Assembly: GCA_938009905.1 (NCBI GenBank)
Contig: CALLGK010000027.1
Coordinates: forward strand, 17,426 to 81,425
Source: an uncultured Acidimicrobiales bacterium
GTDB taxonomy: Bacteria; Actinomycetota; Acidimicrobiia; Acidimicrobiales; SZUA-35
Length of the DNA: 64,000 nt
Direction: 5' to 3'
This document shows, piece by piece, positions 49,147-60,739 of the stretch; within the stretch, counting starts at the first letter, position 1; each line of letters opens with the position of its first letter. The notes beneath the pieces were generated by a model that was not told where the DNA came from, ran no database searches, and was given only the letters and a program-made list of their open reading frames with translations. The translations under genes and the position numbers were made by a program.

Positions 49147-49221
49147 GCCCCTGTGGCGCAGCCTGGTTAGCGCAGTGGACTTTTAATCCATTGGTCGTGG
49201 GTTCGAATCCCACCGGGGGCA
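49147..49221 (+). tRNA. tRNA-Lys (anticodon UUU)
   Basis: Hand-folded cloverleaf: acceptor GCCCCTG/CGGGGGC, D-arm GCGC-agcctggttag-GCGC, anticodon arm GTGGA-CTTTTAA-TCCAT, T-arm GTGGG-TTCGAAT-CCCAC, discriminator A. Confidence 0.9.
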
Positions 49222-49312
49222 CGTGGAATCATTGTGAAGCCCTCGTGGCCGATAAGGATTCCTACAAGCCAGTTTCAACGAACGAAGATCGAACGTAGCG
49301 CCGGAGCCCAAC

Positions 49313-53714: not shown

Positions 53715-54647
53715 TCAGCTCGCCACCAGTGGCTTGTCAGCCTTGGCCGCTCGTCGTTCCTTCATGCGGGCCGCAACACGACCGGTCTTTTCGATGTAGG
53801 TCATCAGCCGTTCCTGGGCCTGTGCACCATCGCCGTCGAGGCCCTCGATATTGGCGATGTCCCAGAATCCGAGCACCACTGGCTCGAGGATGCCTTCGTA
53901 GTGATTCACGAAGTCGTAGATGCCAGCGTTTGCGATCAGCTTCGAGTGACCAGCAAAATCGGGAATGCCGGTGCCCGGCATCGCAAACCCAGTGACCTGG
54001 CGTTCGAGCGCCTGCATCATCTGAGACGGATCGCGCTCAAAGCCGGCCTGCGCGATGTCGCGATAGAAGAGGAAGTGGAAGTTCTCGTCGATCGCGACCC
54101 GGCGCATGATGTCGTAGCCAACTCGATCGTGGGGCTCGATGGCCCGACCGGTGTTGCGGTGCGAGATGCGGGTGGCGAGCTCTTGCAACGTCACGTAACA
54201 CATGCCGTCTGCCGCCGTTGGTGGCTCTGGCACCTCGCCTCCAGACATCTGTGCCATGCGACCCCGTTCGAGCTCGACCGGATCGATCGATCGGCTCACG
54301 GTGAGGTAGTCGCGAATGACCGTGGCGTGCCGGCCTTCTTCAGCCGTCCAGCGCCGGACCCACTCACCCCACGCTCCGTCGGCACCAAACATACGCTCGA
54401 TGTCGCGGAAGTAGTACGGGAGGTTGTCTTCGGTCAGCAGATTGACGAACAGCGCACTGCGGACCTCGGCGGGAAGATTCGCTTCGTCTGGTGACCATTC
54501 GTAGTCGTCTTCGAAGTCGCGTCCTCGGCTCCACGGCACGAAGGTGTGCGGGTGCCATTCTTTGACTTGACTGATGTGTCGTTCGAGAAGCTGCTCGGCG
54601 ACAGGATGAAGATCGTCCAGAAACGCAACGTCGGTGTCGTTGACCAT
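53715..54647 (-). CDS. Acyl-ACP desaturase (soluble di-iron, DesA-type)
   Basis: ...NLLTEDNLPYY..., WVRRWTAEEGRHATVIRDYL (EExRH di-iron motif), ...TLQELATRISHRNT... Confidence 0.85.
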   Translation of the reverse strand: MVNDTDVAFLDDLHPVAEQLLERHISQVKEWHPHTFVPWSRGRDFEDDYEWSPDEANLPAEVRSALFVNLLTEDNLPYYFRDIERMFGADGAWGEWVRRWTAEEGRHATVIRDYLTVSRSIDPVELERGRMAQMSGGEVPEPPTAADGMCYVTLQELATRISHRNTGRAIEPHDRVGYDIMRRVAIDENFHFLFYRDIAQAGFERDPSQMMQALERQVTGFAMPGTGIPDFAGHSKLIANAGIYDFVNHYEGILEPVVLGFWDIANIEGLDGDGAQAQERLMTYIEKTGRVAARMKERRAAKADKPLVAS

Positions 54648-56108: not shown

Positions 56109-56573
56109 CTAGCCGCTAGAGCCAAAGCCGTCGGCACCACGATCGTCTGGCGCCGCGGGCAGTTCATCAACGACGGTGAAGCCCAGCGCCGGAACCGGCA
56201 AGACAAGGAGCTGCGCGATGCGTTGCCCTCGTTCGATGTCGACAGCCGCAGATCCGTGATTCACCAGGATCACCACAAGCTCACCCCGATAGCCGGAATC
56301 GATCAGGCCAGGGCCGTTGGCCACGGTCAGCCCATGCTTGACCGCAAGACCCGATCGCGGCAGCACGAGTCCGCACATCCCTTCGGGAACCGCGATGGCA
56401 AACCCCGTTGGAATCATTGCCTGTTCACCAGGCGCAAACCGATGCGAGATGCGAGCAGGCAGGTCGGCAGCTGCATCACCAGCCCGCTGTCGGCGAGGAC
56501 CCTCAAGATCAGGATCGAGGCGCACGATCGGTACATCAACGGTTGGTAGGCCGTTCGATCCATTCGCAGTCAC
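56109..56573 (-). CDS. dut: dUTP diphosphatase
   Basis: ...GDAAADL..., LVLPRSGLAVKHGL, GLIDSGYRGEL dUTPase motifs. Confidence 0.9.
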   Translation of the reverse strand: MTANGSNGLPTVDVPIVRLDPDLEGPRRQRAGDAAADLPARISHRFAPGEQAMIPTGFAIAVPEGMCGLVLPRSGLAVKHGLTVANGPGLIDSGYRGELVVILVNHGSAAVDIERGQRIAQLLVLPVPALGFTVVDELPAAPDDRGADGFGSSG

Positions 56574-56614
56574 GGGGCGAGCCTAGCGAGCAGTCCCGGG
56601 GCTACTCTGATGCT

Positions 56615-57169
56615 GTGCTCGCCTGGATGGACCTGGAAATGACCGGACTCGACCCGGCGAAACATGTGATTGTCGAGATCGCAACGCTCATTACCGACGA
56701 CGAGCTGAACATCGTCGCCGAGGGCCCAGAGCTCGTGATCCACGCCACAGACGATCAGCTCGCAGGCATGGAACCCGTTGTGGTTGAGATGCACACCAAG
56801 TCTGGCCTGCTCGAACAGATCAAGAACTCGACGATCACGCTTGAAGAAGCCGGCGCCCAAACGTTGGCCTTTCTCAAGGAGCATCTCGAAGAGCGGGCCG
56901 TACCACTCTGTGGGAACTCCATCGGCATGGATCGTCGCTTCCTCGACGCCTATCTGCCAGACATCGAGAACTTCCTGCACTACCGCTCGGTCGACGTCTC
57001 GACGATCAAAGAGCTGTCACGGCGCTGGTATCCCGAGGTACTCAACCAGGCCCCGCGCAAAGCGGTTGCCCACCGAGCGCTCGACGACATCAAAGAGAGC
57101 ATCGACGAGCTCCGCCACTACCGCGAGAGCGTGTTTCGGCCACCGGCCGACAAGACCGCAACCACCTAG
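56615..57169 (+). CDS. orn: Oligoribonuclease
   Basis: LAWMDLEMTGLDP (DEDD exo I), CGNSIGMDRRFL, HRALDDIKESIDELRHY; start GTG 56615 (ATG 56627 alternative); ORF-track extension overlaps dut on opposite strand. Confidence 0.9.
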   Translation: MLAWMDLEMTGLDPAKHVIVEIATLITDDELNIVAEGPELVIHATDDQLAGMEPVVVEMHTKSGLLEQIKNSTITLEEAGAQTLAFLKEHLEERAVPLCGNSIGMDRRFLDAYLPDIENFLHYRSVDVSTIKELSRRWYPEVLNQAPRKAVAHRALDDIKESIDELRHYRESVFRPPADKTATT

Positions 57170-57183
57170 CGCGCCTTCTCTCG

Positions 57184-57909
57184 CTAGCGGATCGACCCGG
57201 TCGCCGCGACACCAGACGGCGTGTGCCACCACACGGTCGTCCGCTCCTCGTTGTCGGCGACCTCGAGTGACACCTCGTCGTCGAGGGTGATCCCAGCGCC
57301 GTACTCGATGACGGCTTGCAGCCTTGGTGGACGACCTCGTTCGGCCAAAAGCTCTTCGATCACGGCCCAGTAGGCGGCGTTGTTCATATGCCGTTGGGTG
57401 TCGAAGTCGACGGCCCGCACCGGCCAGGCCAGACGTCGTCCGTCATCTGCCGACTTGGGAAGCTGATGCGACGCCTTCACCACTCGGTCACCGGCCGCTT
57501 CTCCGTAGAGCTCAATGAACTGCTCGGTGAGTCCGAGCGGGCGGAGTGACGACGGATCAAGGTGAATCCAAATGGAGGCCACCTCGTAGTGGGCACCTGC
57601 CGATCCGACCACGTGAATTCGGCGTTCGGCCCAGCGTCGCCCGAGCCCGCCACAAAACGTCGTGAGCGTGAGTTGTTCGGCCAACGTGGCGTGTTGGTGG
57701 ACATGCACCTCGGTTCGCCGCACGACCCAGGCCGTCGATTCGTCGAGCCGAGCGTCTGTTGTGTCGTCACTCGACACGTCTTGGGTGTATCGAGTCAGTC
57801 CATCAAGGCGAAAACATCCTGAAGGATCTACATCGCCCAGGCGGACCTGACGTGTTGCGGTGAAAGTCCGCCCCAATAGAGGGATTGGGACCATTTCAGA
57901 CGAGACCAC
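57184..57909 (-). CDS. Acyl-ACP thioesterase-like (double hot-dog) protein
   Basis: 241 aa; ...RQVRLGDVDPSGCFRLDGLTRYTQDVSSDD... and second-half ...VDFDTQRHMNNAAYWAVIEE pattern of Acyl-ACP_TE family. Confidence 0.6.
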   Translation of the reverse strand: MVSSEMVPIPLLGRTFTATRQVRLGDVDPSGCFRLDGLTRYTQDVSSDDTTDARLDESTAWVVRRTEVHVHQHATLAEQLTLTTFCGGLGRRWAERRIHVVGSAGAHYEVASIWIHLDPSSLRPLGLTEQFIELYGEAAGDRVVKASHQLPKSADDGRRLAWPVRAVDFDTQRHMNNAAYWAVIEELLAERGRPPRLQAVIEYGAGITLDDEVSLEVADNEERTTVWWHTPSGVAATGSIR

Positions 57910-58038
57910 GAGGGGTAGTAAATCAGGTCTCGGGTACGAAAATCAGTTGACGATCGCGTAATTCGGTTGACACTGTTAGTTGTTCGTAGTTCCCTAACTC
58001 GGGCACGCAAGCCACCCACGCACAGAAAGGACACCAAC

Positions 58039-58263
58039 ATGATGAACATGCTTCAGCAAGTTCCCAGCACGCCGGCCATGGCCGTTGCTCCGCGTTTGGC
58101 GTCCTACCCCGGCTACGAAACCGGCACTGGCATGGGAACTGACACATTTGGTCTCGGTCTGTTTGTGACCGCCATTTGTGAGCACGCCAAGTCCGTCGTC
58201 CGATTCTGGACCGCCAATCCGGCAGCGACGAAGGACCACTCCCAGTGGGAGAGCCCGACCTGA
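58039..58263 (+). CDS. Leader ORF / small protein (74 aa) upstream of the WhiB7-like gene
   Basis: ATG 58039 preceded by aaagga SD; ends 25 nt before a strong intrinsic terminator; no recognisable family. Confidence 0.4.
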   Translation: MMNMLQQVPSTPAMAVAPRLASYPGYETGTGMGTDTFGLGLFVTAICEHAKSVVRFWTANPAATKDHSQWESPT

Positions 58264-58288
58264 TTGTGAGATCACAGGTCAAGGACTC

Positions 58289-58330
58289 GAACCGCTGGGA
58301 GCACAAGCTCCCAGCGGTTCTTTTGTTTTT
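58289..58330 (+). terminator. Intrinsic terminator/attenuator in the whiB leader
   Basis: GAACCGCTGGGAGC-acaa-GCTCCCAGCGGTTC (14-bp perfect stem) followed by TTTTGTTTTT. Confidence 0.7.
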
Positions 58331-58497
58331 CGGCCACAAACGACCGAGAAACGCCGCCAACCAACGAGCCGCCTTGCGGCCAGGACCACACCACCACATG
58401 AACAACCGACACCAACAGCAACCAACACACCAACGAAGAACCACATCACCACCCGTTTGAAGCCCTAGTAGGGGCGAGCAATACCGAGGGGACCCTT

Positions 58498-58929
58498 ATG
58501 ACCACCATCACCATCGATCCAAAGCCTCCAAGTACCGGCACCAGCTTCGGCACGCCGGTCGAGATCGCAAGCACCGACGCTGTGACCTCCGCTAGCACCG
58601 GAGGGCTCAACAGCCCTCTCGCCGAGAGCTGGTGGACTGCAGCTGCTTGCCGTGAGGTGCCGAACGCCGGCGACCTGTTCTTCTCTGAAGAGCTCCAGGA
58701 CATCGCCGCCGCGAAGCGAGTCTGCGCCGAGTGCCCGGCCATTGCGCCGTGCCTCGAAGGTGCCATCACCCGAGGTGAGCCTTGGGGCGTGTGGGGTGGT
58801 CAGCTCTTCCTCAACGGGAAGATCCTGGCTCGGAAGCGGCGTCGAGGACGTCCGCCGAAGAACCCACGGCCCGAGGACCAGATCCCGGACATCCCGGTGC
58901 CTGCGCACCTCCAGAAGCTGATCGCCTGA
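58498..58929 (+). CDS. whiB7: WhiB-family Fe-S transcription factor with C-terminal AT-hook (WhiB7/WblC-like)
   Basis: Cys pattern C-x27-C-x2-C-x5-C (CREV...CAECPAIAPC), GEPWGVWGG turn, AT-hook RKRRRGRPPKNPRP. Confidence 0.85.
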   Translation: MTTITIDPKPPSTGTSFGTPVEIASTDAVTSASTGGLNSPLAESWWTAAACREVPNAGDLFFSEELQDIAAAKRVCAECPAIAPCLEGAITRGEPWGVWGGQLFLNGKILARKRRRGRPPKNPRPEDQIPDIPVPAHLQKLIA

Positions 58930-59214
58930 GCACAGACCAACTGTGCACGATGAGATCGGGCAACGACGCTGCTCTCACACCGACCTCGGTCGGGCCGGAG
59001 CACCTGGTCGAGCCCCATCGACATCAATCAAGCGAACTGCTCCAATCTGGCATCCCTTGCTCTCACTCCGGTGAGGACGAGGGGTGCCAGTGTTGGTTTT
59101 TGGCCCCTCTTTATGCGCAATCTGGCAAGCTTCTGCCGATAGAGGAACGAGCTGTTTCGCTGTTGTTCACCACTTGGGGGAATGGTCCTCTGGGGCAACC
59201 GGTTTGGAGTGCTC

Positions 59215-59823
59215 ATGGACGAAGACGCGCAATCTCACCACGCAGAGCCGTCGCCAGGGGCCGCAACTCGCCCCTGGCTCGTCATTGGCGCCATCGCCAT
59301 CGTCGCGCTCATCGGCGTTCTGGCCCTCTTTGCGACGTCCGAGCCCGCGTCAGACTCCGCTGAACCCAGTGGAGAGTTCGCTGCACTTACCGAGTTTCCG
59401 CTGGCCACCGCAGACGGCTCAGAAGTCACGCTGGCCCTCCACACTGGCGAGCCGATCGTCCTCAACTACTTTGCCGCATGGTGTCCGCCATGCGCTGCTG
59501 AACTTCCAGACTTCCAGGCCGTGAGCGAAGCTCGAATCGACGAAGTCACCTTTGTTGGCATTAGCCGAGACAACGACACCGGTTCGTGGCTCGGGTTGAT
59601 GGAGCAGACAGGCGTGACCTTCCCGAACTACTACGAAGGTGGCGTGCGAGGCAGCTTTGAGCAGGTGCAAGGCCTCGCAATGCCAACCACCGTGTTCATC
59701 ACGGCAGACGGCGAGATCGCTGAAGTGTTCAGCGGTCCCCTCAACCAAGAACTCTTGAACGAGAAAATTGACGAGCATCTCGTCGAAGCGGCAACCCCAG
59801 AAACTGGAGACAACGATGGGTGA
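59215..59823 (+). CDS. resA: Membrane-anchored thiol:disulfide oxidoreductase (TlpA/ResA-like thioredoxin)
   Basis: N-terminal TM (WLVIGAIAIVALIGVLALF), VLNYFAAWCPPCAAELPDF with WCPPC active site; start at ATG 59215. Confidence 0.85.
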   Translation: MDEDAQSHHAEPSPGAATRPWLVIGAIAIVALIGVLALFATSEPASDSAEPSGEFAALTEFPLATADGSEVTLALHTGEPIVLNYFAAWCPPCAAELPDFQAVSEARIDEVTFVGISRDNDTGSWLGLMEQTGVTFPNYYEGGVRGSFEQVQGLAMPTTVFITADGEIAEVFSGPLNQELLNEKIDEHLVEAATPETGDNDG

Positions 59824-60739
59824 TCTATTCGATCCGTTCGCCTTTGGCGTCGGCATGGTGGCGCTGGTGAACCCGTGCGGGTTTGCTCTGCTTCCCGCCT
59901 ACCTCGGATTCTTCCTTGGCCAAGACGATGGCGAGCAGCGACGCATCGTGGCCCTGAACCGAGCGCAGGGCGTCGGTCTATCAATGACCGTCGGCTTCCT
60001 CACCGTCTTCGGCCTCCTCGGTCTGGTCTTCACCGGTCTGTGGCAGGCCATCGTCGAGTGGCTTCCCTACTTCAACGTCCTGCTCGGCATCGGCCTCTTC
60101 ATTCTCGGCATCGCCATGCTGCGAGGCTTCCAACTCGTCATCAAGATCCCCAAGCTCGAAAAGGGCACAGACTCCGCGAGCTTCAGCTCGATGTTCCTCT
60201 TCGGCGTTTCCTACGCCTTGGCATCCCTGTCGTGCACGATTGGTCTGTTCCTCACCGCCGTCAGCGCCAGCTCTGCCTCAACCGGATTCACTGGGCGCCT
60301 CGGTGGCTTCATCTCCTACGGACTCGGCATGGGCCTGCTGGCCAGCGTGCTCACCCTTGCTGTTGCCTTCGGCAAGCGTGGCCTCGTCAACAAAGTCCGA
60401 TCGATTCTTCCCAAGATCAACATCATCTCGGCCGTGCTGCTGCTGATCGTCGGCCCCTACATGATTGGCTACGGCATCTGGGAGATTCAGATCCTCGACG
60501 ATCCAACCACCGTCACTCCGTGGCTCGATTCGATCATCGGCGGCGCTCTCGACTTCCAGTCGTGGATGTCCACCGAGTTCGCCAAGAAGATGACCTTCGC
60601 CGGCCGCACCTTCAGCCGCACCGCCCTCCTCGGCTGGCTGTTCTTCGGCATCAACGCCGTGCTCGTCATCCTCGGCATCAACGCCCGCCGCTCCGGTGGC
60701 AGCCCCGCCGAGCAGAGCAAGCAAACCGCAAACGCCTAA
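59816..60739 (+). CDS. ccdA: Cytochrome c biogenesis protein CcdA (DsbD-family thiol transporter)
   Basis: ALVNPCGFALLPAYLGFF and ...YALASLSCTIGLFL conserved Cys-containing helices; ATG 59816 overlaps resA end by 8 nt. Confidence 0.85.
   Translation: MGDLFDPFAFGVGMVALVNPCGFALLPAYLGFFLGQDDGEQRRIVALNRAQGVGLSMTVGFLTVFGLLGLVFTGLWQAIVEWLPYFNVLLGIGLFILGIAMLRGFQLVIKIPKLEKGTDSASFSSMFLFGVSYALASLSCTIGLFLTAVSASSASTGFTGRLGGFISYGLGMGLLASVLTLAVAFGKRGLVNKVRSILPKINIISAVLLLIVGPYMIGYGIWEIQILDDPTTVTPWLDSIIGGALDFQSWMSTEFAKKMTFAGRTFSRTALLGWLFFGINAVLVILGINARRSGGSPAEQSKQTANA

What the first reader, a model, noticed from the sequence alone, without database searches (positions are those of the whole stretch)
57910..58929. 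WhiB7-like gene behind a ~590-bp leader with small ORF, strong intrinsic terminator and a C/A-rich G-poor tract
**Seen.**
- The WhiB protein has the four Cys, GEPWGVWGG and an AT-hook (RRRGRPPKN).
- Upstream lie, in order:
  - an AT-richer region with direct TAAATCAG/AAAATCAG repeats abutting TTGACG (57947) and TTGACA (57967);
  - a 74-codon ORF with an SD (58039..58263);
  - a 14-bp-stem terminator plus TTTTGTTTTT (58289..58330);
  - a ~75-nt tract (58381..58455) that is almost devoid of G and T (accacaccaccacatgaacaaccgacaccaacagcaaccaacacaccaacgaagaaccacatcaccaccc).

**Established.** whiB7/wblC genes in mycobacteria and Streptomyces are autoregulated through an AT-rich site next to the -35. 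They are also controlled by uORF-dependent attenuation at a leader terminator that senses ribosome stress.

**Inference.**
- The same logic probably operates here, but with an unusually long leader ORF.
- The C-rich G-poor tract resembles a Rho-utilisation site, suggesting a second, Rho-dependent checkpoint.
Basis: partly seen in the sequence, partly recalled or inferred. Interest (0 to 1): 0.6.

Follow-up and report, generated by a model that had tools for sequence, protein, structure and literature searches.

The report
WhiB7 gene with leader-peptide attenuator
This is the antibiotic-stress regulator gene whiB7 of an Acidimicrobiia bacterium, switched on by the known ribosome-sensing leader (small upstream ORF, antiterminator, terminator). 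It is an ordinary member of that class, with two apparently undescribed traits shared by its relatives: a leader peptide holding all 20 amino acids, and a C/A-only spacer before the gene.

Summary
The protein is a WhiB7-type WhiB: four Cys, EPWGVWGG, an RGRP AT-hook, and M. tuberculosis WhiB7 as best solved relative.

Comparison with 80 Acidimicrobiales loci and three mycobacterial loci supports uORF-dependent attenuation.
- A conserved AT-rich box sits next to TTGACA.
- An SD-led uORF ends 20-38 nt before a strong hairpin with a U tract.
- An antiterminator strand lies 12-27 nt before the uORF stop. It pairs with the terminator's left arm and covaries with it.

- The 74-codon uORF is not unusually long. 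Relatives have 44-101 codons, mycobacterial fast growers 74-75, and M. smegmatis 83.
- The C/A tract is real, the most extreme in the 64 kb, and compositionally conserved in 60 of 80 loci. It meets only some rut criteria: high C:G and no structure, but no YC or pyrimidine enrichment. The Rho idea stays speculative.

New observations:
- 34 of 40 family uORFs, including this one, encode all 20 amino acids.
- Most end in Pro followed by UGA.

Verdict: a new member of a known kind, of moderate interest.

The parts
57939..57952 (+). Distal AT-rich box plus TTGACG (GAAAATCAG-TTGACG)
   Evidence: Read. It is conserved in 4-5 of 6 close relatives. It resembles the M. tuberculosis whiB7 promoter cagaaaatcggTTGTGG in L081. 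It is absent from the wider family.
57959..57995 (+). Conserved core promoter-like element: TAATTCGG (AT-rich box), TTGACA (57967..57972), a 14-nt spacer, then CGTAGTTCCCT (57985..57995)
   Evidence: It is invariant in six close relatives. The layout AT-rich box + 3 nt + TTGAC + N14-15 + (C)GT(A/G)GT recurs across about 40 family loci. The composite motif occurs only here in the 64 kb. The exact -10 element and start site are not determined.
58026..58031 (+). Shine-Dalgarno sequence (AAAGGA) of the uORF
   Evidence: AGAAAGGAC and ATGATGA are invariant in close relatives. An SD-led ATG is found in family loci.
58039..58263 (+). uORF / leader peptide: 74 codons, encodes all 20 amino acids, ends SPT-UGA
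   Evidence: five homologues only, no Pfam or NCBIfam family. Interior pN/pS is 0.76. Family uORF GC3 (last 12 codons excluded) equals that of flanking genes.
58239..58248 (+). Antiterminator 5' strand (CUCCCAGUGG, codons 67-70)
   Evidence: It pairs with 58292..58301. It sits at the same position relative to the stop in 28 of 40 loci and covaries with the left arm. Synonymous divergence drops to 0.10 here.
58251..58288 (+). Inner helix of the antiterminator; it includes the last uORF codons, the stop codon and the conserved spacer ACAGGTCAAGGACTC
   Evidence: Fold of the nascent RNA 58225..58302, -35.5 kcal/mol. The spacer is conserved in 5 of 6 close relatives and diverges in L087.
58289..58330 (+). 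Intrinsic (Rho-independent) leader terminator: 14-bp stem plus UUUUGUUUUU
   Evidence: The hairpin is invariant in close relatives. An equivalent hairpin was detected in 57 of 80 family loci under the strict U-tract rule, and in all eight inspected of the 25 loci lacking an in-range strict hit.
58357..58467 (+). C/A-rich, G/T-poor unstructured spacer (core 58381..58455)
   Evidence: It is a compositional feature present in 60 of 80 loci. Sequence and length are not conserved.
58452..58460 (+). Short conserved element CCCGTTTGA between the spacer and the SD
   Evidence: It is identical in 4 of 6 close relatives. Its function is unknown.
58486..58491 (+). Shine-Dalgarno sequence (GAGGGG) of whiB7
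   Evidence: CCGAGGGGACC is conserved in close relatives.
58498..58929 (+). whiB7-type gene (143 aa): variable N-terminal extension, Fe-S Cys motif, EPWGVWGG, RGRP AT-hook, conserved C-terminal tail
59042..59103 (+). Strong hairpin followed by GUUUUUGG; probable terminator of the whiB7 transcript
   Evidence: Fold at -39.8 kcal/mol, z = -6.1.

Best explanation
The locus is the whiB7 orthologue of an Acidimicrobiales bacterium. It is controlled as in mycobacteria and Streptomyces.

**Inferred mechanism.**
1. Transcription starts at a promoter whose AT-rich box next to TTGACA is the likely docking site for WhiB7's AT-hook, giving positive autoregulation.
2. The roughly 495-nt leader carries a translated 74-codon uORF.
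3. If ribosomes run through to the UGA at 58261, they cover and melt the antiterminator (58239..58301). The 14-bp terminator (58289..58330) then forms and transcription stops before whiB7.
4. If a ribosome stalls further upstream in the uORF, because of a translation inhibitor or any uncharged tRNA, the antiterminator strand pairs with the terminator's left arm as soon as it is made. RNA polymerase then reads through the C/A spacer into whiB7.
5. Because the uORF holds every one of the 20 amino acids, it can in principle report shortage of any of them.

**Shown here.** The anatomy, its conservation, covariation of the antiterminator and terminator, and RNA-level constraint on the uORF's 3' end.

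**Inferred.** The start site, uORF translation, stalling, inducibility and autoregulation.
For: **Protein.**
- Pfam Whib at E=9e-15.
- The best solved relative is M. tuberculosis WhiB7 at 63 bits, against 34 bits for WhiB1 and 30 or less for WhiB3, WhiB and WhiB4. The alignment runs through EPWGVWGG and the AT-hook.
- RGRP is present in 81 of 81 family proteins and EPWG.WGG in 74 of 81.

**Leader.**
- A strong hairpin with a U tract was found in 57 of 80 loci under a strict U-tract rule. Eight of the remaining 25 loci were inspected and all had it, with interrupted U tails.
- ATG+SD uORFs of 44-101 codons end 20-38 nt before the stem.
- Within each uORF, the best complement to the terminator's left arm lies at -27..-12 from the stop in 28 of 40 loci.
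- Three sequence classes of left arm each have a matching antiterminator. In alignment A1, antiterminator pair 15-91 switches between G-C (8 sequences) and A-U (12), while terminator pair 91-110 is C-G or U-G.
- The nascent RNA up to the left arm folds into the antiterminator at -35.5 kcal/mol. Masking a ribosome footprint at the stop codon abolishes it and leaves the terminator.
- The last 11 uORF codons have synonymous divergence 0.10, against 0.42-0.46 elsewhere.
- The mycobacterial loci L082 and L083 show the same layout, with 74- and 75-codon uORFs.

**Published mechanism.** Lee, Lee & Roe 2022 as cited in PMC10274678, PMC11550727 and PMC13236596.
Against: - There are no expression data for this organism.
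- No sigma-70 consensus promoter was called. The conserved -10-like CGTAGTT lies only 14 nt after TTGACA, so the promoter geometry and start site are uncertain.
- There is no Rfam family for the leader.
- The full-length leader folds thermodynamically into the terminator form, so antitermination must be kinetic, as in other attenuators.
- The window uORF is not alanine-enriched (12%, against 24% in M. smegmatis), so one trait described for mycobacterial uORFs is missing.
Confidence: 0.85

Rival explanations
1. The C/A spacer (58357..58467) is a selected unstructured linker that works at the level of whiB7 translation or RNA folding. RNA made of C and A alone cannot base-pair with itself. It would therefore keep the whiB7 ribosome-binding site open, acting as a standby or landing site when ribosomes are scarce. 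It would also insulate that site from the G+C-rich attenuator helices.
For: - The tract is depleted in both G and U (8 G and 2 T of 75), which removes all pairing. A rut site would need only low G.
- It is predicted fully unpaired, and the 200-nt post-terminator leader folds no better than shuffles (z = +0.87). The uORF-terminator part is strongly structured (z = -3.75).
- The tract fills the space between the U tract and the SD in the family.
- Its sequence and length drift freely while its composition is kept.
Against: - There is no direct evidence.
- A few family loci (L025, L035, L064) lack the tract and have very short linkers, so it is dispensable.
- The same properties also suit Rho loading.
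Confidence: 0.45
2. One reading: the C-rich, G-poor tract is a Rho-utilisation site. It would give a second, Rho-dependent checkpoint that kills transcripts which escape the intrinsic terminator, unless whiB7 is promptly translated.
For: - The C:G ratio is 4.1-4.5, the highest in the 64 kb.
- The tract is 75-110 nt of unpaired, untranslated RNA directly downstream of the attenuator.
- A C-rich, G-poor composition at this position recurs in the family: the highest C:G window of the locus lies here in 44 of 80 loci, and the family profile shows C 39-45% against G 20%.
- There is a precedent for a uORF that senses antibiotics coupled to Rho: toiL-topAI in E. coli (PMC12121999).
Against: - There are 12 YC dinucleotides in 74 positions, which is the genome average (56th percentile). 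Pyrimidine content is only 47%.
- Rut sites mapped for full-length M. tuberculosis Rho show no significant C>G or YC bias. They are best distinguished by U>G bias and low structure (PMC13650167). Here U (2) is below G (8).
- No paper found links Rho to whiB7 leaders.
- Rho acting here would oppose induction exactly when translation is inhibited.
- No rho gene or Rho activity was examined for this organism.
Confidence: 0.2
3. The 74-codon ORF is a stand-alone small-protein gene with its own terminator, and whiB7 is transcribed from a separate promoter downstream of 58330.
For: - The ORF has an SD, gene-like GC3 and five homologues of similar length.
- Codons -30 to -12 show some purifying selection (pN/pS 0.41).
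Against: - There is no Pfam or NCBIfam family.
- The interior has pN/pS 0.76 with frequent indels.
- Peptides cannot be aligned across the family, yet always sit at the same distance from the terminator.
- Conservation at the 3' end is at the nucleotide level.
- The region 58331..58497 has no conserved promoter-like motif and no promoter call. With 2 T in 75 nt, the tract cannot hold a TAnnnT -10 element.
Confidence: 0.04
4. The single-stranded C-rich spacer is an endonuclease entry site, for example for actinobacterial RNase E. From my own recollection, that enzyme is reported to prefer cleavage next to cytidines. Cleavage would separate the uORF part from the whiB7 mRNA or set its half-life.
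For: The only support is the unpaired, C-rich nature of the tract and its position between two translated units.
Against: No cleavage data exist and no sequence motif is conserved. The cleavage preference is recalled, not checked in a paper here.
Confidence: 0.08

Closest known systems
whiB7 / wblC leader attenuator of Mycobacterium and Streptomyces (Burian & Thompson 2018; Lee, Lee & Roe 2022; Poulton et al. 2024, PMC10274678)
   Same: - An AT-rich box lies about 3 bp upstream of the -35-like hexamer.
- The leader is long.
- The SD-led uORF has the same size range: 74 codons here, 74-75 in L082 and L083, 83 in M. smegmatis.
- The antiterminator strand lies 12-23 nt before the uORF stop. By my reading of the L082 sequence, TCCGTGGA lies about 13-21 nt before the stop there.
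- A Rho-independent terminator follows, then whiB7.
- The protein has an EPW motif and an AT-hook.
   Different: - The host is class Acidimicrobiia, not Actinomycetes. No paper in the library mentions whiB7 in this class.
- The uORF is not Ala-rich (12%) but contains all 20 amino acids. L082 and L083 have 18, and M. smegmatis has 19.
- Most family uORFs end in Pro-UGA. The mycobacterial ones end in FL-UAG.
- The terminator has a good U tract.
- The spacer to whiB7 is an extreme C/A tract (6 G/T per 60 nt, against 17-21 in the mycobacterial loci).
- The protein has a 45-aa N-terminal extension and a conserved 24-aa tail.
- Synteny differs: acyl-ACP thioesterase and redoxin here, uvrD-like helicase and ABC1 kinase in mycobacteria.
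Classical leader-peptide attenuators of amino-acid operons (trp, his, leu, ilv; ilvB1 in M. tuberculosis, PMC13236596)
   Same: The ribosome's position on a leader ORF chooses between mutually exclusive antiterminator and terminator hairpins. A ribosome at the stop codon masks the antiterminator.
   Different: Those leaders are short and enriched in one or a few regulatory codons. This one is long and carries every amino acid, so it is a general translation-stress sensor rather than a sensor of one amino acid.
toiL-topAI of E. coli (PMC12121999)
   Same: A uORF responds to many classes of ribosome-targeting antibiotics, in a long 5' leader containing a rut.
   Different: There the control is translational plus Rho-dependent, with no intrinsic terminator, and the rut is pyrimidine-rich. 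Here an intrinsic terminator is the evident switch, and the tract is C/A-rich, not pyrimidine-rich.

Membership tests
WhiB7 subclass of WhiB-like (Wbl) proteins | Wbl domain with four Cys that ligate a 4Fe-4S cluster | tested here: met
   Pfam PF02467 at E=9e-15. Cys51, 76, 79 and 85 fit the pattern C-x24-C-x2-C-x5-C. The same pattern was found in all 81 family sequences. Cluster binding itself was not tested.
WhiB7 subclass of WhiB-like (Wbl) proteins | EPW motif followed by the G[VI]WGG turn (sigma-A region 4 contact) | tested here: met
   GEPWGVWGG at residues 93-101. It aligns to AEPWGVWGG of M. tuberculosis WhiB7 chain 7kif_Z. It is present in 74 of 81 family proteins. The role of EPW in sigma binding is from my own knowledge.
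WhiB7 subclass of WhiB-like (Wbl) proteins | C-terminal AT-hook (RGRP) | tested here: met
   RRRGRPPK at residues 114-121 aligns to KRPRGRPRK of 7kif_Z. RGRP is present in 81 of 81 family proteins.
WhiB7 subclass of WhiB-like (Wbl) proteins | Closer to WhiB7 than to other Wbl paralogues | tested here: met
   Against solved structures: WhiB7 63.4 bits (E=2e-16), WhiB1 34.6, WhiB3 30.1, WhiB 29.5, WhiB4 22.9. No NCBIfam model matched.
WhiB7 subclass of WhiB-like (Wbl) proteins | Activates intrinsic resistance genes in response to translation stress | not testable with these tools
   This needs expression or genetic data.
whiB7/wblC uORF-mediated transcription attenuator | AT-rich WhiB7 box immediately upstream of the -35 hexamer of its own promoter | tested here: met
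   TAATT-CGG-TTGACA at 57959..57972 is conserved family-wide. A distal GAAAATCAG-TTGACG resembles the M. tuberculosis promoter. Binding was not tested.
whiB7/wblC uORF-mediated transcription attenuator | Translated uORF in the leader | tested here: inconclusive
   An SD plus ATG is conserved. Family uORF GC3 is gene-like. The all-20 amino-acid content argues for selection on the coding sequence. Translation itself was not observed.
whiB7/wblC uORF-mediated transcription attenuator | Rho-independent terminator between the uORF and whiB7 | tested here: met
   A 14-bp stem plus U tract, -29.2 kcal/mol. It was detected in 57 of 80 family loci under the strict rule and in all eight further loci inspected.
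whiB7/wblC uORF-mediated transcription attenuator | Antiterminator overlapping the uORF 3' end, mutually exclusive with the terminator | tested here: met
   58239..58248 pairs with 58292..58301. Position is conserved in 28 of 40 loci. Compensatory change is seen. Synonymous-site conservation is seen.
whiB7/wblC uORF-mediated transcription attenuator | Alanine enrichment of the uORF (described for mycobacteria, PMC10274678) | tested here: not met
   The window uORF has 9 Ala in 74 residues (12%), against 11.4% in the GC3-filtered flanking ORFs of the related loci. The family pool is 15.3%. This is a described tendency, not a mechanistic requirement.
whiB7/wblC uORF-mediated transcription attenuator | Read-through induced by ribosome-targeting antibiotics or amino-acid starvation | not testable with these tools
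   This needs Term-seq or reporter assays.
Rho-utilisation (rut) site | High C:G ratio over about 70-80 nt | tested here: met
   34 C against 8 G in 78 nt, the maximum of the window.
Rho-utilisation (rut) site | Little secondary structure; untranslated | tested here: met
   The tract is predicted unpaired. No SD-led ORF covers it.
Rho-utilisation (rut) site | Enrichment in YC dinucleotides or pyrimidines | tested here: not met
   12 YC in 74 positions is the 56th percentile of the window. Pyrimidines are 47%.
Rho-utilisation (rut) site | Features of actinobacterial (M. tuberculosis) Rut sites: U>G bias, lower G+C | tested here: not met
   U = 2 is below G = 8. The criterion is from PMC13650167. 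Whether it applies to Acidimicrobiia Rho is unknown.
Rho-utilisation (rut) site | Rho-dependent 3' ends downstream | not testable with these tools
   This needs in vitro termination assays or Rho depletion.

The most novel reading that the evidence does not exclude
Acidimicrobiia whiB7 leaders may be a distinct variant of the attenuator, with three traits.
- The leader peptide is under selection to contain every one of the 20 amino acids. One switch could then report shortage of any charged tRNA as well as antibiotic stalling.
- The peptide usually ends in Pro-UGA, a context that may park the terminating ribosome over the antiterminator.
- The obligatory pairing-incompetent C/A spacer may act as a second checkpoint, either Rho loading or ribosome standby, that decides whether read-through transcripts yield WhiB7.
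Probability: 0.3. Interest if true: 0.6.

Novelty: new member of a known kind. Interest (0 to 1): 0.4.

Why it matters
- The whiB7 attenuator is a central switch for intrinsic antibiotic resistance in mycobacteria. Finding the full design (box, uORF, antiterminator, terminator) in the deep-branching class Acidimicrobiia suggests the circuit is ancient in Actinomycetota. It also gives natural covariation support for the antiterminator model.
- The comparative set offers two testable leads that the mycobacterial literature read here does not state:
  - near-universal coverage of all 20 amino acids by the leader peptide, which would explain why these uORFs are long;
  - a conserved C/A-only spacer between the attenuator and the gene.
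- If the spacer proves to be a Rho or translation checkpoint, it would add a layer to a clinically relevant regulatory paradigm.
- As it stands, the locus itself is an expected, ordinary example.

Tried and rejected
- **Rfam.** A scan of 57000..60000 at E<=1 found nothing. A whole-window gathering scan found only a tRNA and an ASdes hit elsewhere. There is no curated family for this leader.
- **NCBIfam.** Nothing matched WhiB or the uORF peptide.
- **Sigma-70 consensus scan.** No promoter was called. The promoter was instead defined by conservation, and its -10 and start site remain uncertain.
- **Tandem Repeats Finder on the tract.** No repeats, so the tract is not a microsatellite expansion.
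- **HMM of the uORF peptide against the 80 loci.** Only L001 and L002 hit clearly. The peptide is not conserved as a protein family.
- **Strict terminator rule.** It found no in-range terminator in 25 of the 81 sequences scanned. Inspection of eight of these found the hairpin with an interrupted U tail in each.
- **Second uORF-calling pipeline with fixed hairpin windows.** It lost many loci, but still gave 28 of 41 uORFs with all 20 amino acids.
- **Alanine enrichment, as described for mycobacteria.** Not seen in the window uORF.
- **Rare-codon use in the uORF.** None: family uORF GC3 equals that of flanking genes.
- **D'Halluin et al.** The journal version (PMC10122055) is not held. The preprint has no mention of whiB7.
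- **20-codon ATG ORF inside the tract (58398..58460).** It has no SD and is absent from relatives, so it was rejected as a second uORF.
Full report
**1. Observation**

- The WhiB ORF is 58498..58929 (143 aa) and the uORF is 58039..58263 (74 codons).
- The uORF is preceded by AAAGGA, 7 nt upstream of its ATG.
- The consensus scan finds a 14-bp stem (10 G-C pairs, loop of 4) at 58289..58320, followed by TTTTGTTTTT. Its energy is -29.2 kcal/mol.
- The tract 58381..58455 has 33 C, 32 A, 8 G and 2 T.
- It is the most G/T-poor 75-nt window in the whole 64 kb: 9 G/T against a median of 37, and no other region comes near.
- It also has the highest C:G ratio in the window.

Two details needed correction.
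- Only AAAATCAG abuts TTGACG. TAAATCAG (57920) abuts no TTGAC, and TTGACA is preceded by TAATTCGG.
- The conserved promoter-like element ends near 57995. The transcribed leader is therefore probably about 495 nt, not about 590 nt. This is an inference, because no start site is mapped.

**2. The gene**

- The protein hits Pfam Whib at E=9e-15.
- Among solved structures the best match is M. tuberculosis WhiB7 (63 bits, E=2e-16). WhiB1 scores 35 bits, and WhiB3, WhiB and WhiB4 score 30 or less.
- The WhiB7 alignment runs through EPWGVWGG and the RGRP AT-hook.
- The closest genomic relatives are Acidimicrobiales and Acidimicrobiia genomes, mostly metagenome-assembled.
- RGRP is present in all 81 family proteins and EPWG.WGG in 74.
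- Compared with the 92-aa M. tuberculosis protein, this one has a variable N-terminal extension of about 45 aa (pN/pS 0.67). It also has a conserved 24-aa tail after the AT-hook.
- The core evolves under strong purifying selection (pN/pS 0.12).

**3. The leader compared across 80 related loci**

- *Terminator.* A strict search found a strong hairpin plus U tract 130-330 nt upstream of the first Cys codon in 57 of 80 loci. Eight of the 25 loci without an in-range strict hit were inspected. All had the hairpin, with interrupted U tails.
- *uORF.* An ATG-started, SD-led ORF of 44-101 codons (median about 68) ends 20-38 nt before the stem.
- *Promoter.* Upstream of the uORF, nearly every locus has an AT-rich box, three bases, TTGAC, 14-15 bases, then (C)GT(A/G)GT. 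In the six closest relatives the block TAATTCGG-TTGACA-N14-CGTAGTTCCCT is invariant. The composite motif occurs only once in the window.
- *Second box.* A distal box, GAAAATCAG-TTGACG at 57938..57952, resembles the M. tuberculosis whiB7 promoter cagaaaatcggTTGTGG. It is limited to the close relatives.

**4. The switch**

- For each locus I looked for the best complement to the terminator's left arm anywhere in the uORF.
- In 28 of 40 loci it lies 27 to 12 nt before the uORF stop codon.
- The left arms fall into three sequence classes, and the upstream strand changes with them:
  - CTCCCAG(Y)GG pairs with CCGCTGGGAG (the window's class);
  - CCCGACGGCC pairs with GGCCGTCGGG;
  - CCTGGCGGCC pairs with GGCCGCCGGG.
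- In alignment A1 (29 sequences), antiterminator pair 15-91 is G-C in 8 sequences and A-U in 12. The competing terminator pair 91-110 is C-G or U-G. This change is specific to the antiterminator.
- In the window, the nascent RNA 58225..58302 folds into a long antiterminator hairpin at -35.5 kcal/mol.
  - The outer helix is 58239..58248 paired with 58292..58301.
  - The inner helix contains the last codons, the stop codon and the conserved spacer ACAGGTCAAGGACTC.
- Masking a ribosome footprint centred on the stop codon removes this structure and leaves the terminator.
- Synonymous divergence among five close relatives falls to 0.10 in the last 11 codons, against 0.42-0.46 elsewhere in the uORF. 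The constraint there is on the RNA.
- The mycobacterial loci L082 and L083 have the same layout.
  - They carry called 74- and 75-codon uORFs.
  - By my reading of the L082 sequence, the strand TCCGTGGA lies about 13-21 nt before the uORF stop and complements the terminator's left arm.

Together these results support the published uORF-antiterminator-terminator model for whiB7/wblC. That model is described in PMC10274678, PMC11550727 and PMC13236596.

**5. The uORF is not a conventional protein gene and is not unusually long**

- It has no Pfam or NCBIfam family.
- It has only five homologues among 5.8 billion proteins.
- An HMM built from them finds only the nearest loci.
- Its interior evolves with pN/pS 0.76 and frequent indels.
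- Its length is typical. The M. smegmatis uORF is 83 aa (bioRxiv 10.1101/2025.10.10.681568), and two fast-growing mycobacteria have 74 and 75 codons.
- Family uORF GC3 (0.85, last 12 codons excluded) equals that of flanking genes, which is consistent with translation.

**6. New observation: the leader peptides carry the whole amino-acid alphabet**

- The window peptide contains all 20 amino acids in 74 residues, and already in its first 62.
- Across the family, 34 of 40 uORFs do so.
- The expectations are much lower:
  - about 1 of 40 for same-length segments of real proteins from the same loci;
  - about 4 of 40 for random draws from the uORFs' own pooled composition (maximum 12 in 2000 simulations);
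  - 5% for all ATG-to-stop ORFs of 44-101 codons in the loci.
- A second, less reliable calling pipeline gave 28 of 41. Six more lacked a single residue, usually Cys.
- The peptides cannot be aligned between sub-groups, so the property is kept despite sequence turnover.
- This fits experiments showing that the uORF's amino-acid content decides which starvations induce whiB7 (PMC10274678). It also offers a reason for the uORF's length.
- The mycobacterial uORFs seen here have 18 of 20. M. smegmatis is reported to have 19.
- In addition, 32 of 38 family uORFs have Pro as the last or second-last residue, 22 end in Pro, and 32 use UGA.
- The Pro-UGA pattern may slow termination and hold the ribosome over the antiterminator. 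It may equally be a by-product of the inner helix sequence. The data cannot separate these two explanations.

**7. The C/A tract**

- It is a family trait. In 60 of 80 loci the most G/T-poor 60-nt window of the roughly 6-kb locus lies in the 350 nt before the WhiB domain, where 5% would be expected. The loci are phylogenetically related, so the P value is only indicative.
- On average, positions +20 to +80 after the terminator are 39-45% C, 24-33% A, about 20% G and 8-11% T.
- Sequence and length are not conserved even among close relatives. The window has the longest and purest version.
- It is not a tandem repeat.
- The tract is predicted to be unpaired. The 200 nt after the terminator fold no better than shuffles (z = +0.87), whereas the uORF-terminator part is highly structured (z = -3.75).
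- Three mycobacterial loci show only a weak version (17-21 G/T per 60 nt).

*As a rut site it passes some criteria and fails others.*
- Passed: high C:G, length, lack of structure, and no translation.
- Failed: YC dinucleotides are at the genome average and pyrimidines are 47%.
- The Rut sites mapped for full-length M. tuberculosis Rho show no C>G or YC bias but a U>G bias (PMC13650167). Here U is nearly absent.
- No paper found links Rho to whiB7 leaders.

*What it may be instead.* Depletion of both G and U is exactly what makes RNA unable to pair. I therefore rank an unstructured standby or insulating linker for whiB7 translation (0.45) above a Rho checkpoint (0.2) and an RNase entry site (0.08). 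None of these can be settled without experiments.

**8. Verdict**

The finding is a genuine, well-formed whiB7 attenuator in a class where it has not been described. No paper in the library mentions whiB7 with Acidimicrobiia.
- The main interpretation is right.
- The 'unusually long uORF' is not supported.
- The Rho idea is unproven and only partly fits.

It is a new member of a known kind. Three clade-level traits are worth follow-up: the all-20 leader peptide, the Pro-UGA ending, and the C/A spacer.

Noticed in passing
window 58855..58926; family loci L001-L080: WhiB7 proteins of this clade carry a conserved 22-30-aa tail after the AT-hook (PK.PRPEDQLP.IPIP.HL...; here PKNPRPEDQIPDIPVPAHLQKLIA). 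M. tuberculosis WhiB7 lacks it. Its function is unknown.
   Followed up: partly
window 58498..58630: The N-terminal extension of WhiB7 (about 45 aa) is variable and Thr/Pro/Ser-rich, with pN/pS 0.67 against 0.12 for the core. Its first codons continue the G-poor composition of the leader.
   Followed up: partly
window 58039..58263 and uORFs of 40 related loci: 34 of 40 leader peptides contain all 20 amino acids in 44-101 residues, where about 1-4 of 40 would be expected. The window peptide has single Ile and Cys codons at 58174..58179.
   Followed up: yes
uORF 3' ends in related loci; window 58252..58263: Pro is the last or second-last residue in 32 of 38 leader peptides, and the stop codon is UGA in 32 of 38. 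This may reflect slow termination (ribosome parking) or a constraint from the RNA helix.
   Followed up: partly
window 58174..58230 (uORF codons -30 to -12): The peptide segment AICEHAKSVVRFWTANPAA is more conserved than the rest of the uORF interior (pN/pS 0.41 against 0.76), with normal synonymous divergence. This hints at a peptide-level role such as nascent-chain effects.
   Followed up: no
window 57920..57966: Three AT-rich octamers (TAAATCAG at 57920, AAAATCAG at 57939, TAATTCGG at 57959) are spaced 19-20 bp apart and conserved in close relatives. They may be multiple AT-hook sites, or elements of the divergent thioesterase promoter.
   Followed up: partly
window 58452..58460: A short element, CCCGTTTGA, between the C/A tract and the whiB7 SD is identical in 4 of 6 close relatives. 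In the window it can pair with CAAACG at 58337..58342, bracketing the tract.
   Followed up: no
window 59042..59103: A very stable hairpin (-39.8 kcal/mol, z = -6.1) followed by GUUUUUGG lies about 115 nt after the whiB7 stop. It is probably the terminator of the transcript, upstream of the redoxin gene.
   Followed up: partly
window 56408..60739; loci L085-L087: Gene order is conserved: RNase T-like exonuclease, acyl-ACP thioesterase (minus strand), uORF, whiB7, redoxin/AhpC-TSA protein, then a 308-324-aa gene product with no Pfam family on record. This differs from mycobacteria (UvrD-like helicase, whiB7, ABC1 kinase).
   Followed up: partly
window 54271..54338 (+): An Rfam match to ASdes (M. 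tuberculosis sRNA family RF01781), at 48.1 bits against a gathering score of 40. It was not examined further.
   Followed up: no
window 49147..49222 (+): tRNA-Lys (anticodon TTT), the only tRNA in the window.
   Followed up: no
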